A DNA stretch of 43,553 nucleotides from Escherichia phage EP-B-K_E2. A program made the position numbers and the translations under genes. Every line of letters starts with the position of its first letter. Position 1 is the first letter of the stretch. Under the pieces are notes generated by a model. That model was not told the DNA's origin and searched no databases. It saw only the letters and a list, made by a program, of their open reading frames with translations. Shown here piece by piece: positions 1 to 43,553 of this stretch. The DNA lies in sequence record OR992644.1, one strand, 5' to 3'.

Positions 1-1
1 C

Positions 2-364
2 ACAAACGGTGAAAATCTTGGTTTCGGTTTCTGTGCCGAAGTTGGGGGGTTTATAAACTGCGAACGGTCGCACGCCCTCGGAAATCAGGTAGCTGGGTTT
101 TACGCGCTTAGCAATGGGAGTATGTGGGCGCACGCGTGTGTATCTAACAACAATATAGGCCACGGCTTCTATGCCCTAAACGGGGGCGTGGTTGAAGGTA
201 ATGGGCTTAGTACCGCAGACGCAGATAGGTCCAACGCCTACAGTAATGGCGGATGGGGTTTTTACGCAGTAAATGGTGGGATAATGCAGGCGTGGAACTC
301 ATATTCAACCAATAATAGTCAGGGCACTTACGGGACCTCAAACGGTGGGATAATGCTTCCATAG
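2..364 (+). CDS. tailspike C-terminal segment (continuation of the CDS starting at 42150, across the circular junction)
   Basis: Frame of 42150 ORF continues through the 55-bp terminal overlap into frame 2 at window start; stop at 362-364; repeated GFYAxNGG beta-helix-like motifs. Confidence 0.65.
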   Translation, partial: TNGENLGFGFCAEVGGFINCERSHALGNQVAGFYALSNGSMWAHACVSNNNIGHGFYALNGGVVEGNGLSTADADRSNAYSNGGWGFYAVNGGIMQAWNSYSTNNSQGTYGTSNGGIMLP

Positions 365-14332: not shown

Positions 14333-15035
14333 CAAAAACGAAGTATTCGAGTACCTGATTAACCAACTACGGCAGCAGTTACAAGTCGTAGATGTAATGG
14401 GTGAAATCGAACGGTGGAGTATTGACCGTAGTATTGCCGGACGAGGTAACTATACCGACGAGGAAAACGCCATAATTGATGCTTACATCGGCCTGGAGCA
14501 CAACCCGTACAAGCAACAGTGCGAAGACCTGGCGCGTGAGGTGCAGTCACTTAAGAATCAGTTACGTGATGCGTCGGCGCAGATTAAGGAGTTGCAGGAA
14601 GACAACATTGAGAAATCCAGGCACATATCACATCTGGCGGGGCAATCGTCGGCGTATTGCAATGACGCTTTTCGCCTTCAAGCGCAAGTTGATGACCTGG
14701 TAAAACGGCTGGCTAAGGCCACTGGTGACGAGTCTGCGCAGATTAAGGAGTTGACGCTCGCGCTAGATAGTTTAGATAACGAGGTTATGTGTCTTCGTTC
14801 GATCGTTGACCTGGACCCTAAAGGCGCGATTGGGTACATCCGGCGGGCAAATAGTGCAATGACTGACACCATGCGCCGCCAATACCTTAGCAAAGCACTT
14901 GAGGAACTCGGATGTAAGGATTCGCCAGAACAATCCGGTTGCCATAAAGATGACGTGCAGGAATGCAAGCACGATTGGTACTTTTACGATAAAGGTGCTT
15001 CGATGATGTGCAAGAAATGTGGGTTAAAGAAATGA
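14322..15035 (+). CDS. hypothetical coiled-coil protein with C-terminal Cys cluster
   Basis: Start moved to ATG with SD ggagg; internal repeat SAQIKEL x2; C-terminal CxxxxxxC...CxxC. Confidence 0.5.
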   Translation: MMSNKNEVFEYLINQLRQQLQVVDVMGEIERWSIDRSIAGRGNYTDEENAIIDAYIGLEHNPYKQQCEDLAREVQSLKNQLRDASAQIKELQEDNIEKSRHISHLAGQSSAYCNDAFRLQAQVDDLVKRLAKATGDESAQIKELTLALDSLDNEVMCLRSIVDLDPKGAIGYIRRANSAMTDTMRRQYLSKALEELGCKDSPEQSGCHKDDVQECKHDWYFYDKGASMMCKKCGLKK

Positions 15036-25808: not shown

Positions 25809-25843
25809 TTCTAAATTCCTTATCTCTCGTTTCGATGTAATGA

Positions 25844-25872
25844 ATAGTACCCTATTATGCTGGTGTGTGCAA
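25844..25872 (-). promoter_or_regulatory. sigma70-like promoter TTGCAC-N17-TACTAT with dyad (minus strand)
   Basis: Near-identical to 12844-12872 element. Confidence 0.6.
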
Positions 25873-35003: not shown

Positions 35004-35033
35004 TTTAAACCCCTTCATTGTTGGTGTAAGTGA

Positions 35034-35062
35034 ATAGTACCCTATTATATTGGGGTACGCAA
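35034..35062 (-). promoter_or_regulatory. sigma70-like promoter TTGCGT-N17-TACTAT with dyad (minus strand)
   Basis: Near-identical to 12844-12872 and 25844-25872 elements. Confidence 0.6.
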
Positions 35063-35169: not shown

Positions 35170-35586
35170 ATGAAACTTTCTGATTTTTATTTCGAAGAGA
35201 AAGCACTGGTAGGCAAGAAGATGCCGATTCTCCTGCCAAATGGTGAAGACTCAGGGGAATGGCTTAATGTTGTAAATCCGGATGCGGATGCCGCCGTTAA
35301 AGCGGGGCGTGCTTTCATTATCGCGTACCGTCGCGGACTGGCGCGTTTCGAAGAACTGGAAAAAACCGCTAAAGCCTCCGGCGACTATACAGAATACAAC
35401 CTGGCGGTTAACGAACTGGCGGAAGACCTCAACCGGCAACTTGCGGCAGAAGTCGTAAACGGCTGGAGCTTTGACGAGCCTTTCTCTAAGGAAGCGTTTA
35501 ACAAGTTGCTCGACCAGTTCAAGGCATTAGGCACACAGGTAGCCGCGTTCCATAACGCTGAGCGCAAAGCATTACAGGAAAAGTAG
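35170..35586 (+). CDS. tail assembly chaperone (G-like)
   Basis: 138 aa immediately upstream of tape measure with overlapping downstream frame. Confidence 0.6.
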   Translation: MKLSDFYFEEKALVGKKMPILLPNGEDSGEWLNVVNPDADAAVKAGRAFIIAYRRGLARFEELEKTAKASGDYTEYNLAVNELAEDLNRQLAAEVVNGWSFDEPFSKEAFNKLLDQFKALGTQVAAFHNAERKALQEK

Positions 35587-35618
35587 ACGCGCTGTACAGG
35601 TTCGCCACCTACGAGTTT

Positions 35619-35951
35619 GTGGATAAGCATAAAATCAGAGAGTTTGATTCTATAGCTGACGGACACGAGCAGGCGCTTATCGCGATGGGTGTAATCGATA
35701 AGAAAAAACGTGCAGCGCGACGGGGTGGGCCGGAATGTCCGCCCCTTTTTATATCCACCTTTGAGACGTATTGCGACATTAAGTTTACGCGACACGTGCG
35801 CGAGGACGCTGTAGTATTGTTTGCAAGAGAATCCGTTACGTGGCAAGACCTGAAAGCCTATCTCGACGTTACGAAAAAACAGCTTAGCCTGTTCGAGATA
35901 GACATTATCATGGGCTTAGAAGCAATCTTTGAAGGTAGAAACCATGGCTGA
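35619..35951 (+). CDS. tail assembly chaperone extension (T-like), probably expressed by -1 frameshift; frame open from 35562
   Basis: No SD before GTG; frame-0 ORF overlaps end of 35170 gene around GGAAAAG at 35577-35583. Confidence 0.45.
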   Translation: MDKHKIREFDSIADGHEQALIAMGVIDKKKRAARRGGPECPPLFISTFETYCDIKFTRHVREDAVVLFARESVTWQDLKAYLDVTKKQLSLFEIDIIMGLEAIFEGRNHG

Positions 35952-38217
35952 TATCGCTAGCTTGATAGTACGAGTATCCGCAACCGGCGTCGATAAAGTC
36001 ACATCACAACTGAACGGGCTTACTAAAGCCGCAGGCGCTGCGGCTGCCGCCGTTGTCAGCCTGGAAACCGCTAAGCAGGTGTTCAGTGCGCTGGTGGACT
36101 CCCAGCGAAACTTCGATAAGCTGAACTCCGGCCTAATCACAATGACCGGGAGTGCTGAGAACGCGGCTAAGGCTTTCAGCGTCCTGCAACAGTTCGCAAA
36201 AGAAACCCCGTATGGCCTCAATCAGGCGGTCGAGGGCTTCACTAAACTTGTAGCTCTTGGTCTTAACCCCAGCAAAGAGGCGTTAATCTCCTACGGCAAC
36301 ACCGCCGCTGCGATGGGCAAAGACCTTAATCAGATGATTGAGGCTGTGGCGGACGCCAGTACATTTGAGTTTGAGCGACTGAAAGAGTTTGGTATCAAGT
36401 CGTCACAGCAGGCGGATACAGTGTCGTTCACGTTCCGCGGTGTTACCACCACGGTTAAGAAGAACTCCGAAGAGATTCAGAAATACCTTCTGAATATTGG
36501 TAACACTGATTTCGCCGGAGCGATGGAAACGCGTTCGAAAACCCTTGACGGGCAGTTATCCAGCCTCGCGGACTCCTTTGACGGCCTTGTACTTGCGGTG
36601 GCGCAATCAGGTTTCGGCGACGCCGTAGGTGAGCAAGCTGCGAGGGCGGAAGATGCTATCACGGCGCTTACTGATGCCATCGCGTCTAATGAGATAGCAG
36701 CCACGCTCCAGGATTGGGTAACACTGTTCAATGAATCGTTCAAGTTTATCTCTGATGCCTTGAACGACCTGGCATACGATACCGAGGACAAATCCGTGGA
36801 TATGTCCGACTCGCTGGGGGGTATACCGGACGCTATCCGTGAGTGGTTGCCCGACATTCAGCAGACATTCCACGAGGTTATTGCGTGGTTCCAGCGCATT
36901 GACGATTATGCCGTAGCGTTAGGCCAGACCCTTGCCGACGTGTTTGACCCGAGCAAAACGGCGGCGCTTACATTTAAAAACCTTACCGCAGAGGCTGATG
37001 CCGCATACGATGCCAGCATAAAACGGGCGGAGGCCGAGTCGCAGGCCATTACCAACAGGTCTAAGCAGCGTAAGAAAGAAATTGAGGAACAACGCAAGCA
37101 GTATGATGAGCGCAAGAAGCAAGAGATTGACTTAGCCAGCCTTGTTAATAAAAAGGGCGGAACTGGTGGAACGGGGGAAACCGACGATAAAGCAGCAAAA
37201 GCCGCCGCCAAGAAAGCAGAGCAATTGCGCAAACAGGCGCAAGATTACCTCGACACTTTGGCCCGTCAGAACAACGACGAGTTAAAAGCTATTGACGCGC
37301 AGGAACAGCAGAAACTGGCTAAAGCGAAAGAGTTCTACAGCCAGGGCGCACTGTCACTGAAAGAATACGAACAAGCTAAAACAGCTATCGTCCTCGAAGC
37401 CGGACAAAAACGGCAAGATGAACTGGATAAACGCCAGAAAGAAGCCCTGGAAAAGCAGCAGAAAGGCGACGACTTCATGGCTCAGATTATGGGCCAGAAC
37501 GCTACTGAGCTTGAGCTTCTCGACATCCAGGAACAGCAGAAACTGGCGGTAGCGGATAAGTACCGCGAGCAGGGTTTGATTAGCGAGAAGCAGTATCAGG
37601 CCGCGCTTAACGCCATCAACGAGCAATACGCCACCAAGCGTGCTGATGCAACGGCAACGGCCTTTGGTAACATGGCCTCAAACATCGGGTCTGCGTTGGG
37701 TGAGGCTTCTGGCGCGTACAAGGCATTCGCTATCGTACAGGCCACCATAGCCACGTACACCGCGGCTATCGAGGCGTACAAGTCCACGGCGGCTATCCCC
37801 ATAGTCGGCCCGTTCCTGGCCCCTGTAGCCGCTGCCGCTGCCGTTGGTGCAGGTATGGCTCAGGTTTCCGCTATCAGGTCAGCACGTGAACAAGGTGGTC
37901 AGTTATCCGCGGGGCAGGCTTCTACTATAGCAGAACGCGGAAAACCAGAAGTTATCATGCCTGCCGGGGCATCGCGTGTGCGCACCGCACAGCAGATGAA
38001 AGAAATTATGGGCCAAAACGGGTCTTCTTCCGGCCCGTCCAATGTTACTATCGTAAACAACACGAGTTCTCAAATCGGCAACGTATCCACCGAGCAAGAT
38101 GATGAAGGCCGTTTGCGTATCATCATCGAGGAGCAAGTGGCAGCCTCTTTGCAGAACAGCAACAGTAAGATTAGCAAGGCCCGCAAGGCCACAAGAAATG
38201 CGCCGGGGTTTAAATAA
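35944..38217 (+). CDS. tail tape measure protein
   Basis: 758 aa, Ala/Gln-rich coiled coil, internal repeats, position. Confidence 0.8.
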   Translation: MADIASLIVRVSATGVDKVTSQLNGLTKAAGAAAAAVVSLETAKQVFSALVDSQRNFDKLNSGLITMTGSAENAAKAFSVLQQFAKETPYGLNQAVEGFTKLVALGLNPSKEALISYGNTAAAMGKDLNQMIEAVADASTFEFERLKEFGIKSSQQADTVSFTFRGVTTTVKKNSEEIQKYLLNIGNTDFAGAMETRSKTLDGQLSSLADSFDGLVLAVAQSGFGDAVGEQAARAEDAITALTDAIASNEIAATLQDWVTLFNESFKFISDALNDLAYDTEDKSVDMSDSLGGIPDAIREWLPDIQQTFHEVIAWFQRIDDYAVALGQTLADVFDPSKTAALTFKNLTAEADAAYDASIKRAEAESQAITNRSKQRKKEIEEQRKQYDERKKQEIDLASLVNKKGGTGGTGETDDKAAKAAAKKAEQLRKQAQDYLDTLARQNNDELKAIDAQEQQKLAKAKEFYSQGALSLKEYEQAKTAIVLEAGQKRQDELDKRQKEALEKQQKGDDFMAQIMGQNATELELLDIQEQQKLAVADKYREQGLISEKQYQAALNAINEQYATKRADATATAFGNMASNIGSALGEASGAYKAFAIVQATIATYTAAIEAYKSTAAIPIVGPFLAPVAAAAAVGAGMAQVSAIRSAREQGGQLSAGQASTIAERGKPEVIMPAGASRVRTAQQMKEIMGQNGSSSGPSNVTIVNNTSSQIGNVSTEQDDEGRLRIIIEEQVAASLQNSNSKISKARKATRNAPGFK
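37300..37547 (+). repeat. in-frame direct repeat inside tape measure gene
   Basis: Exact 20-mer caggaacagcagaaactggc at 37300 and 37528 (228 bp apart); protein repeat IDAQEQQKLA / LDIQEQQKLA. Confidence 0.7.
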
Positions 38218-42149: not shown

Positions 42150-43553
42150 ATGTCAAGCGGATGCGGTGACGTTTTAAGCCTGGCGGATTTACAGATTGCG
42201 AAGAAGCACCAGCTTTTCGAGGCTGAGGTTATCACAGGCAAATCAGGCGGCGTATCAACTGGTACTGATATTGATCACGCAACCAACGCTGTTACTGGGC
42301 AAGTGCAGAAAACAATGCCAGCCATTTTGAGAGATGTAGGATTTGAACCGGCGGCGTTCGATTTTTACACTGGAGGTACTCTTAGCGTGACTGACCGTAA
42401 TAAGGCGGTGTTATGGCCTTTAGGTTCTGGCGGAGATGGTGCGTGGTATAATTGGGAGGGCGCTTTGCCGAAAGTGGTCCCCGCTGCGTCTACTCCTGCT
42501 ACCACCGGGGGCATCGCCGCTGGTGCGTGGAAGCTAACTATGGACCCTACATTACGCAGTGACCTGACTAATGTGGAGTCAGACCTGGCCGAACTTAATT
42601 CCGATTTTGAAGCGTATAAGACATCACTGGCATCTGCAAACAGTGGCCTCCTGGTTGATGATAGCAACATAAAAGTCCAGGGCGACTTTAACAACACCGT
42701 AATCCGCACTCAGCACTCAAAAAATAATGACACACCAACCGTAAAAGATTTTGGTGCAATAGGCGACGGCGTAACCGACGATACTGCGGCACTCCATGCC
42801 GCGTTTGCCTCCGGTGTGTACTATTTCCCTCACGGCTTATATAAGACTACTACCGCATCGACGATATCACAGTTAGCCAAATCCGACGGCCCGGGTGTGA
42901 TAACGTTTAACGGGGTTAACTTCCCTGCGTCGCGCACGGTTGATAATGCTGTGTATCTTGTGTCGGTTCCTGAAATGTTCCCTACTATCCAGGCGGCCCT
43001 TGACTTCTTCAGTTTTAAACGTGCAGCTAATAACGCGTGGTTTCGCATTCAGGTCGATAATGGGGTGTACCAGGTTAAAAACATTCGTTCCAGGGTAAAA
43101 GACTGGCACGCCTTGCAAATTATAGGTAATGAGTCAAACCCTCTGGACTGTCAATTACAAGTAGACACTACTGACAACGGGTGTGGTTTTATTTTTGAAG
43201 ATGGGTTTGGGGCCGCGGTTATAAACGGCTTCCATATTTTCGGTGTAGGAGGATGGTCATCTAAGGGTGTATGGGCTAATCAAAGTTACGGAGCCGCTAT
43301 TCGTGTTATAGGGTCAGGTTCTAAGGTATCAACAGGAACCGCCATTCGTACGGAAAGAATATATTACGGATTCCAGGCGTTGTACGGCGGCACTATCAAC
43401 TGTCAGGGGACTACCGCCGTTCAGGCAGGGGACTGCGGATACCATGCATATGCTGCGACGATTAATGCTTACGGATGCACCGCACAGGACTGTGCGCACA
43501 CAAACGGTGAAAATCTTGGTTTCGGTTTCTGTGCCGAAGTTGGGGGGTTTATA
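42150..43553 (+). CDS. tailspike with pectate-lyase-like beta-helix (N-terminal part; continues at 2-364)
   Basis: SD aaagagga; KDFGAIGDGVTDDTAALHAAFASG pectate-lyase-type motif; no stop before window end; total 571 codons if circular. Confidence 0.7.
   Translation, partial: MSSGCGDVLSLADLQIAKKHQLFEAEVITGKSGGVSTGTDIDHATNAVTGQVQKTMPAILRDVGFEPAAFDFYTGGTLSVTDRNKAVLWPLGSGGDGAWYNWEGALPKVVPAASTPATTGGIAAGAWKLTMDPTLRSDLTNVESDLAELNSDFEAYKTSLASANSGLLVDDSNIKVQGDFNNTVIRTQHSKNNDTPTVKDFGAIGDGVTDDTAALHAAFASGVYYFPHGLYKTTTASTISQLAKSDGPGVITFNGVNFPASRTVDNAVYLVSVPEMFPTIQAALDFFSFKRAANNAWFRIQVDNGVYQVKNIRSRVKDWHALQIIGNESNPLDCQLQVDTTDNGCGFIFEDGFGAAVINGFHIFGVGGWSSKGVWANQSYGAAIRVIGSGSKVSTGTAIRTERIYYGFQALYGGTINCQGTTAVQAGDCGYHAYAATINAYGCTAQDCAHTNGENLGFGFCAEVGGFI
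43499..43553. repeat. 55-bp terminal redundancy identical to 1-55
   Basis: Exact identity; lies inside tailspike coding frame, consistent with circular-contig overlap. Confidence 0.9.

What the first reader, a model, noticed from the sequence alone, without database searches (positions are those of the whole stretch)
37300..37547. In-frame tandem duplication inside the tape measure gene
An exact 20-mer repeats 228 bp (76 codons) apart and the encoded segments are similar (IDAQEQQKLAKAKEFYSQGALSLKEYEQA versus LDIQEQQKLAVADKYREQGLISEKQYQAA). Such duplications change tail length in units and mark recent tape measure evolution.
Basis: seen in the sequence. Interest (0 to 1): 0.25.

Follow-up and report, generated by a model that had tools for sequence, protein, structure and literature searches.

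The report
Old tandem duplication in tape measure
The tape measure gene of this K1G-like (Kagunavirus) E. coli phage does contain two adjacent copies of a 76-amino-acid helical unit, but the duplication is ancient and fixed in all relatives, so it is an ordinary conserved feature and not recent tail-length evolution.

Summary
An exact 20-mer, CAGGAACAGCAGAAACTGGC, lies at 37300-37319 and 37528-37547, 228 bp apart and in frame, inside the 757-aa tape measure gene (35944-38217, +).

The similarity goes well beyond the 20-mer. Residues 423-492 align without gaps to 499-568, scoring 123 against a shuffle maximum of 62-64. BLASTP gives 42% identity over 59 aa (E 6e-11). This is a true head-to-tail duplication of a 76-aa unit. 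Each unit is predicted as helix, a 5-residue QG(A/L)(L/I)S turn, then helix, and contains a sub-threshold SHOCT-like motif.

The "recent" reading fails on four counts:
- The two units are 47% identical in DNA, which is what random back-translation of the two peptides gives.
- Unit 1 resembles unit 1 of other phages (52%) far more than unit 2 (26%).
- All 54 two-unit relatives examined as loci, Kagunavirus, Jerseyvirus and environmental viral contigs, keep exactly two units 76 aa apart, 15 aa before a conserved LGE motif.
- No relative with three units, and none shortened by one 76-aa unit, was found.

The 20-mer encodes the conserved peptide QEQQKL(A) in preferred codons. K1G itself breaks it with a synonymous AAG.

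Side finding: breaks in similarity between tape measure variants (mosaic junctions) cluster at the unit borders and at the end of the first 20-mer.

The parts
35944..38217 (+). Tape measure protein (TMP) gene, 757 aa. The ATG at 35944 is taken as the start; the mechanical ORF starts at a TTG at 35929.
   Evidence: phrog_1538 'tail length tape measure protein', E 9.8e-195, full length. PF20155 TMP_3 on residues 51-218 scores 39 bits against a cut-off of 41. The gene is 90-95% identical in DNA to Kagunavirus TMP genes, and the start matches the K1G annotation.
37210..37437 (+). Repeat unit 1 (aa 423-498, 76 aa)
   Evidence: Ungapped self-alignment at offset 76, BLASTP, and a unit HMM hit at E 1e-26 to 1e-41.
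37438..37665 (+). Repeat unit 2 (aa 499-574, 76 aa), directly abutting unit 1
   Evidence: It is followed 15 aa after the 69-aa unit core by the conserved LGE motif (aa 585) in every two-unit relative.
37300..37319 (+). Exact 20-mer, copy 1: codons for Q453-E-Q-Q-K-L plus GC of Ala459
   Evidence: The sharp mosaic junction in L058-L060 falls at 37317, at the 3' end of this 20-mer.
37528..37547 (+). Exact 20-mer, copy 2: codons for Q529-E-Q-Q-K-L plus GC of Ala535
   Evidence: K1G, L020 and L032 carry AAG here, which reduces the exact match to 14 nt.
37342..37356 (+). Predicted helix-breaking turn QGALS (aa 467-471) in unit 1
   Evidence: AlphaFold2 model of aa 419-599: non-helical at model residues 49-53, with local pLDDT about 80.
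37570..37584 (+). Predicted helix-breaking turn QGLIS (aa 543-547) in unit 2
   Evidence: AlphaFold2 model: non-helical at model residues 125-129.
37312..37386 (+). SHOCT-like motif of unit 1 (aa 457-481)
   Evidence: PF09851 SHOCT, E 0.0028 for the unit alone and 1.3e-4 for both units together; 22.1 bits against a cut-off of 27. The unit profile retrieves bona fide multi-SHOCT proteins.
37549..37620 (+). SHOCT-like motif of unit 2 (aa 536-559)
   Evidence: PF20612 SHOCT_2, E 0.0082, below threshold. It aligns in register with the unit 1 motif.
37720..37875 (+). Hydrophobic Ala/Gly/Ile-rich segment of the TMP (about aa 593-644), directly downstream of the repeats
   Evidence: Read from the translation. 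It is conserved in all relatives of the C-terminal module.
35170..35951 (+). Two tail assembly chaperone ORFs upstream of the TMP (35170-35586 and 35619-35951). The second is in the -1 frame relative to the first.
   Evidence: PF08748 Phage_TAC_4 and PF23812 Phage_TAC_18. K1G annotates a joined chaperone CDS here.

Best explanation
The window is a complete K1G-like phage genome (Kagunavirus, Guernseyvirinae). Its tape measure protein carries two adjacent copies of a 76-residue unit, aa 423-498 and 499-574.

Each unit consists of a long helix, a conserved QEQQKL-type stretch, a five-residue QG(A/L)(L/I)S turn and a second helix. The central part resembles a SHOCT motif.

The two copies arose from one old in-frame tandem duplication, or an equivalent unequal recombination between alleles. 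That event predates the divergence of Kagunavirus, Jerseyvirus and their environmental relatives. Since then the number of units (two), their spacing (exactly 76 aa) and their distance to the C-terminal LGE/hydrophobic module (15 aa) have been held constant. This is the behaviour expected of a protein whose length sets the tail length.

The exact 20-mer is not a remnant of the duplicated DNA. It is the most conserved peptide of the unit, QEQQKL(A), written in both copies with the preferred codons CAG GAA CAG CAG AAA CTG.

Shown: the repeat, its extent, its age relative to the phage radiation, and the fixed register. Inferred: that each unit adds about 11 nm of ruler (76 x 0.15 nm, roughly three tube rings), and that the fixed register reflects selection on tail length.
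For: - Real repeat: score 123 against a shuffle max of 62-64; 42% identity over 59 aa, E 6e-11.
- TMP identity.
- Age: DNA identity 47.4%, against 46.0 +/- 1.8% expected from the peptides alone, with third positions 31/76 identical. Mean identities are u1-u1 52%, u2-u2 42%, u1-u2 26%.
- Fixation: two units in all 11 two-unit phage TMPs including the window, 757-779 aa, and in all 43 two-unit IMG/VR loci, always 76 aa apart. The gap from the 69-aa core of unit 2 to LGE is 15 aa in 49 of 49 two-unit proteins.
- Wider distribution: a unit profile searched against 1.84 billion representatives gave 214 hits. Among the best 150, proteins of at least 500 aa carry one unit (67), two units (26, of which 15 have exactly 76-aa spacing) or three units (1).
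- 20-mer: K1G has AAG in copy 2. Relatives use GAG, CAA, CTT and TTA at these codons. Only 10 of 43 two-unit IMG/VR loci carry both 20-mers.
- Structure: helix-turn-helix per unit, mean pLDDT 70.9 with unit cores about 80.
Against: - Given the phage's overall codon usage, six identical codons for the shared peptide have P about 0.015. The 20-mer is therefore somewhat more than a neutral expectation, and a small gene-conversion patch or local codon conservation cannot be excluded.
- The direction of change is not settled. Single-unit relatives have a fixed 51-aa spacer that shows no similarity to the unit (hhalign probability 0.9%). They could be ancestral or could have lost or replaced a unit.
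- No usable tail-length measurements were found, so the link to tail length rests on general TMP knowledge.
- The structure model is a monomer of moderate confidence, whereas the real TMP is an oligomer inside the tube.
Confidence: 0.85

Rival explanations
1. Recent in-frame duplication: the 228-bp segment was copied recently, the 20-mer is surviving identical DNA, and the event is an ongoing change of tail length.
For: An exact 20-mer at a spacing that is a multiple of three. A 20-nt in-register run is expected in only about 1.4% of random back-translations.
Against: - Outside the 20-mer the units are at random-level DNA identity: 47% observed against 46% expected, with third positions 41% identical.
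- Protein identity is only 36-42%.
- Units group by position, not by phage.
- The two-unit architecture is present in relatives down to 46% identity.
- No length polymorphism of +/-76 aa was found.
Confidence: 0.02
2. The two units were not duplicated in place. They were brought together by recombination between two different tape measure alleles that each carried one unit, so the tandem arrangement is a mosaic product.
For: - The TMP is strongly mosaic. DNA identity to Bas72, EcoPhCCP1 and 17 IMG/VR loci jumps from about 50% to about 90% at 37410-37456, which is the u1/u2 border at 37438.
- Single-unit TMPs are the more common state among representatives, 67 against 26.
Against: - The exact 76-aa register and the similarity over the whole 70 aa, including the non-SHOCT first helix, are equally expected from a simple tandem duplication.
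- At this depth the two routes cannot be told apart.
- Either way the event is old.
Confidence: 0.1
3. The identical 20-mers are maintained at the DNA level, by short-patch gene conversion between the units or because the conserved patch serves as a joint for homologous recombination among TMP alleles.
For: - The same codon string CAGGAACAGCAGAAACTG recurs in u1 or u2 of distant relatives such as L050 and L058.
- The junction between window-like and foreign sequence in L058-L060 falls at 37317, at the end of the first 20-mer.
- P about 0.015 for identical codons.
Against: - Synonymous variants (AAG, GAG, CAA, CTT, TTA) occur freely in relatives, including K1G at 98% protein identity.
- All six codons are the phage's most used ones.
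- The three loci with the junction at 37317 probably share a single event.
Confidence: 0.1

Closest known systems
Internal repeats of tape measure proteins (Belcaid, Bergeron and Poisson 2011, PMC3271669: variable numbers of an 11-aa unit; tail length follows TMP length in lambda, Katsura and Hendrix 1984, as cited in PMC13585406)
   Same: An in-frame tandem repeat inside a TMP, in the helical part of the protein, with a spacing that preserves the reading frame. In principle it adds a fixed increment of ruler.
   Different: - The unit is 76 aa, not 11, and Tandem Repeats Finder sees no short-period array.
- There are only two copies.
- Copy number does not vary among relatives.
- The copies are old and diverged rather than a recently expanding array.
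TMPs of Guernseyvirinae phages (K1G, K1ind1-3, ZCEC5, Jersey-like Salmonella phages; phrog_1538)
   Same: The same gene, the same length class (757-779 aa), and the same two-unit architecture with an identical 76-aa spacing.
   Different: Only allele-level differences. The window combines a K1G-type N-terminal half and unit 1 with a unit 2 and C-terminus that other lineages (Bas72, EcoPhCCP1) join to different N-terminal halves.
SHOCT domain (Pfam PF09851, and SHOCT_2 PF20612)
   Same: The central ~28 residues of each unit (L..L..F...G.IS..EY..AK..I) match the SHOCT profile. The unit profile retrieves proteins with 2-6 significant SHOCT matches, total scores 62-167 bits.
   Different: - Scores for the window are below the Pfam cut-off: 22 bits against 27.
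- The motif is internal to a long helical ruler protein, not a short C-terminal domain.
- It is embedded in a larger 76-aa unit with an extra N-terminal helix.

Membership tests
Phage tail length tape measure protein | Sequence membership in a curated TMP family | tested here: met
   phrog_1538, E 9.8e-195 over residues 1-751. PF20155 TMP_3 scores 39 bits, just under its 41-bit cut-off.
Phage tail length tape measure protein | Gene position: directly after the two tail assembly chaperone ORFs and before the distal tail / tail tip genes | tested here: met
   Phage_TAC_4 and Phage_TAC_18 ORFs lie at 35170-35951. DUF1833 and Phage-tail_3 ORFs lie downstream. The order is the same in the annotated relatives.
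Phage tail length tape measure protein | Protein length proportional to tail length | not testable with these tools
   The published tail measurements found for relatives are mutually inconsistent: 28 nm for Golestan and 203 nm for LPSent1. No mutants are available.
Recent tandem duplication | High DNA identity between the copies, above what the shared peptide sequence alone gives | tested here: not met
   47.4% observed against 46.0 +/- 1.8% expected. Only the 20-mer stands out.
Recent tandem duplication | Copy number differs among close relatives, or paralogous copies are closer to each other than to their orthologues | tested here: not met
   All 54 two-unit relatives have two copies 76 aa apart. 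Mean identities are u1-u1 52%, u2-u2 42%, u1-u2 26%.
Short-period TMP repeat arrays (11-aa units of Belcaid et al. 2011) | Array of many 11-aa units with variable copy number | tested here: not met
   Tandem Repeats Finder reports only two trivial rows in the gene. The repeat period here is 76 aa with two copies.
SHOCT domain (PF09851) | Score at or above the Pfam gathering threshold | tested here: not met
   22.1 bits against 27 for both units together. 4 of 15 units from the family reach E <= 0.01, best 1e-5. Some relatives carry a precomputed PF09851 hit.
SHOCT domain (PF09851) | Reciprocal similarity: the unit profile finds accepted SHOCT proteins | tested here: met
   Profile positions 28-62 match multi-SHOCT proteins P0080, P0084, P0090, P0104 and P0110, which score 62-167 bits on PF09851.
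SHOCT domain (PF09851) | Short domain at the C-terminus of the protein | tested here: not met
   The motifs lie at aa 457-481 and 536-559 of a 757-aa protein.

The most novel reading that the evidence does not exclude
The 76-aa unit may be a fixed-length exchangeable cassette. Breaks in similarity between TMP alleles cluster at the start of unit 1 (37181-37244), at the end of the first QEQQKL 20-mer (37317), at the u1/u2 border (37410-37456, 19 sequences with two different N-terminal types) and within or near the end of unit 2 (37575-37650). On this reading the conserved patches of the repeat act as recurrent recombination joints that let phages shuffle halves of the ruler without changing its length. 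The two 20-mers would also be a ready substrate for a 228-bp in-frame deletion or triplication that would shift tail length by about three tube rings.
Probability: 0.3. Interest if true: 0.35.

Novelty: new member of a known kind. Interest (0 to 1): 0.15.

Why it matters
It matters little beyond annotation. It records that Guernseyvirinae tape measures contain an old, rigidly spaced pair of 76-aa SHOCT-like helical units just upstream of the hydrophobic C-terminal module, and it corrects the idea that the 20-mer signals recent change.

There is modest wider value in two respects:
- The strict conservation of register (76 aa between units, 15 aa to the LGE motif, about 172 aa to the end) across very divergent sequences illustrates length constraint on a molecular ruler.
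- The clustering of mosaic junctions at unit borders gives a concrete, testable case of how ruler genes can recombine without changing length.

Tried and rejected
- Gapped Smith-Waterman self-alignment drifted along the near-diagonal and was uninformative. It was replaced by ungapped diagonal scoring.
- Tandem Repeats Finder found no array covering the repeat. This is expected at 47% DNA identity.
- A third, degenerate unit upstream was looked for. Diagonals at offsets 81 and 114 score 41, the shuffle mean, and the iterated unit HMM finds only two units. Rejected.
- The 51-aa spacer of single-unit TMPs was tested as a decayed unit. hhalign gives probability 0.9%. There is no support, so the direction of change (gain versus loss) stays open.
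- The PDB sequence search with the unit profile gave only a chance-level GnsA hit, E 0.057. Foldseek of the model against the PDB gave nothing with E <= 0.001, only generic helical matches.
- Tail lengths in the literature were not usable. The JSSK01 and ZCEC5 papers give no length. Golestan (28 nm) and LPSent1 (203 nm) are mutually inconsistent. From memory, not verified here, Jersey-like phages have tails of roughly 116-120 nm, which would fit 757-779 aa at 0.15 nm each.
- A search for papers linking SHOCT and tape measure proteins returned only three papers, each holding the two terms once or twice; none was read.

Full report
**1. The observation**

The sequence CAGGAACAGCAGAAACTGGC occurs at 37300-37319 and again at 37528-37547. 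Apart from the 55-nt overlap between the two ends of the contig, it is the only exact 20-mer repeat in the 43,553-nt window.

The copies are 228 nt apart and lie in the frame of a 757-aa ORF. This ORF runs from the ATG at 35944 to 38217; the mechanical ORF list starts it at a TTG at 35929.

**2. The gene and the genome**

- It matches phrog_1538 at E 9.8e-195 over its full length.
- It has a near-threshold TMP_3 domain at the N-terminus.
- Two tail assembly chaperone ORFs lie directly upstream, and DUF1833 and tail-tip genes lie downstream.

The gene is 90-95% identical in DNA to the TMP genes of Kagunavirus phages (K1G, K1ind1-3, ZCEC5, EP-M-A). All of these align over the same 2289 nt, and the gene is annotated as tape measure in K1G. 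The window is therefore a complete K1G-like siphovirus genome.

**3. Extent of the repeat**

The repeat finder extends the DNA match to 47 nt at 74% identity. At protein level the diagonal at offset 76 gives an ungapped alignment of residues 423-492 with 499-568. Its BLOSUM62 score is 123. Shuffles of the whole protein give mean 41, sd 5, max 62. Shuffles of only the charged region 361-600 give a max of 64. BLASTP of the two halves gives 25/59 identities, E 6e-11, with no gaps.

So 70 of the 76 residues of the period are alignable. This is a head-to-tail duplication of a 76-aa unit:
- u1 is aa 423-498, nt 37210-37437.
- u2 is aa 499-574, nt 37438-37665.

No third copy exists. Other diagonals score at the shuffle mean, and an iterated unit HMM finds two units only.

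**4. Age of the duplication**

The two 228-nt units are 47.4% identical, with 31 of 76 third positions identical. Back-translating the two peptides at random with the phage's codon usage gives 46.0 +/- 1.8%. No DNA signal is left beyond the shared amino acids.

Units were collected from 23 TMPs and aligned without gaps. Mean identities are 52% among u1 copies, 42% among u2 copies, and 26% between u1 and u2. The duplication therefore predates the divergence of these phages.

All 11 two-unit phage TMPs, including the window's, have exactly two units. The others are K1G, EcoPhCCP1, LM02P1, VSe101, Bas72, BUCT789, STP03, AG11, VLCpiS11a and ER7. Their lengths are 757-779 aa. The same holds for all 43 two-unit loci from IMG/VR, always with a start-to-start spacing of 76 aa.

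In 49 of 49 two-unit proteins the 69-aa core of u2 ends exactly 15 aa before a conserved LGE motif. Where the C-terminus is present, that motif lies about 172 aa from the end of the protein. No relative differs by +/-76 aa.

**5. The 20-mer**

It encodes Q-E-Q-Q-K-L plus the first two bases of Ala. This is the best conserved peptide of the unit; QEQQKL also occurs in single-unit relatives such as P0039 and L058. All six codons are the phage's most used synonymous codons.

Identical codons at all six positions have P about 0.015 under overall codon usage. An in-register run of at least 20 nt appears in 1.4% of simulations. That is unusual but not extreme.

The identity is not stable in evolution:
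- K1G (98% protein identity) has AAG in copy 2, leaving a 14-nt match.
- Other relatives use GAG, CAA, CTT and TTA.
- Only 10 of the 43 two-unit IMG/VR loci carry both 20-mers.

The 20-mer is best read as a conserved peptide written in preferred codons. A short conversion patch cannot be excluded.

**6. What the unit is**

An AlphaFold2 model of aa 419-599, built with 12 homologous segments, has mean pLDDT 70.9, with about 80 in the unit cores. It is all-helical, with breaks at QGALS (aa 467-471) and QGLIS (aa 543-547). Each unit is therefore helix, turn, helix.

The central part of the unit matches the SHOCT profile below threshold. PF09851 gives E 1.3e-4 and 22 bits against a cut-off of 27 for both units, and SHOCT_2 gives E 0.008 on u2. 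4 of 15 family units reach E <= 0.01.

In the reverse direction, a profile of 15 units was searched against 1.84 billion representative proteins and gave 214 hits. Short or multi-hit proteins that match only profile positions 28-62 are true multi-SHOCT proteins, scoring 62-167 bits on PF09851.

Among the best 150 hits, proteins of at least 500 aa carry one full unit (67), two (26, of which 15 have exactly 76-aa spacing) or three (1). Those checked carry different N-terminal TMP domains: TMP_2 and PhageMin_Tail.

No solved structure is related by sequence or by fold.

**7. Relation to single-unit tape measures**

The single-unit forms are Shewanella phage 3/49 (682 aa), Aeromonas phage phiA005 (669 aa) and a group of 571-584-aa metagenomic TMPs. 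In nearly all of those in which the LGE motif could be located (phiA005 was not among them), the unit is followed by a fixed 51-aa stretch before the LGE motif. In the two-unit form the corresponding stretch is 91 aa (7 + 69 + 15). The difference is therefore 40 aa, not 76.

The spacer shows no similarity to the unit (hhalign probability 0.9%). Whether one unit is ancestral or a second unit was lost or replaced cannot be decided here.

**8. Mosaicism (side finding)**

Identity to the window changes abruptly along the gene.
- EcoPhCCP1 is 42% identical in u1 but 96% in u2, and Bas72 is 50% and then 94%.
- VSe101 is 46% identical in u2 and then 84% downstream.

Change-point analysis of 56 relatives places the breaks in a few clusters:
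- 37181-37244, the start of u1
- 37317, the 3' end of the first 20-mer, in L058-L060
- 37410-37456, the u1/u2 border at 37438, in 19 sequences with two different N-terminal types
- 37575-37650, within or near the end of u2
- outside the repeats, near 36527-36552 and 38022-38092

L058-L060 are close relatives that keep u1 but replace u2 and the hydrophobic region with unrelated sequence, giving an 807-808-aa TMP. Many of these junctions are inherited rather than independent, so the clustering is suggestive only.

**9. Mechanism and verdict**

By the established rule that TMP length sets tail length, one 76-aa unit would contribute about 11 nm, roughly three tube rings. The rule comes from lambda, Katsura and Hendrix 1984, as cited in PMC13585406; repeat units in TMPs are treated in PMC3271669. 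Applying it here is an inference. Tail measurements found for relatives were unusable.

The data show:
- A real in-frame tandem duplication exists.
- It is old and fixed.
- Its register is under strong constraint.

The structural interpretation is right. The claim of recency is wrong, and the tail-length consequence is untested.

This is an ordinary, previously undescribed detail of a known kind of feature. Interest is low.

Noticed in passing
window 1-55 and 43499-43553: The first 55 nt of the window are repeated exactly at its end. This is most likely the overlap of a circularly assembled contig, giving a unique genome length of 43,498 bp, rather than a biological terminal repeat.
   Followed up: no
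window 25841-25858 and 35031-35048: An exact 18-mer, TGAATAGTACCCTATTAT, occurs twice. The second copy lies in the gap between a minus-strand ORF and the chaperone gene. The flanks share GG.GT..GCAA just downstream, but the wider context does not align. It may be a repeated promoter or regulatory site.
   Followed up: partly
window 14577-14594 and 14736-14753: Another exact 18-mer, GCGCAGATTAAGGAGTTG, is repeated 159 nt (53 codons) apart. It could be a second in-frame internal repeat in another gene.
   Followed up: no
window 35170-35951: The two chaperone ORFs are arranged as in a G/GT pair. The second ORF (35619-35951) is in the -1 frame relative to the first, and the first ends ...CAG GAA AAG TAG with an A-rich run (35575-35586). 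K1G annotates a joined chaperone CDS. This suggests a programmed frameshift.
   Followed up: partly
window 37486-37501 and 38005-38020: A 16-nt segment, ATTATGGGCCAGAACG, is repeated at 15/16 identity. It encodes IMGQN both in the first helix of unit 2 and in the C-terminal region (aa 515-519 and 688-692). It is probably chance; the unit HMM gives only E 4 there.
   Followed up: partly
window 36527-38092 (TMP gene); loci L002, L005, L021-L038, L058-L060: The TMP gene is a patchwork. The N-terminal half, unit 1, unit 2 with the hydrophobic module, and the last ~60 codons each have different closest relatives, with sharp junctions at 36527-36552, 37317, 37410-37456 and 38022-38092.
   Followed up: yes
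L058, L059, L060 (IMG/VR contigs of 34-44 kb): These close relatives have a TMP of 807-808 aa that keeps the window-type N-terminus and unit 1. Unit 2 and the hydrophobic segment are replaced by unrelated sequence about 50 aa longer. In L058 and L059 the C-terminus returns to window-like sequence.
   Followed up: partly
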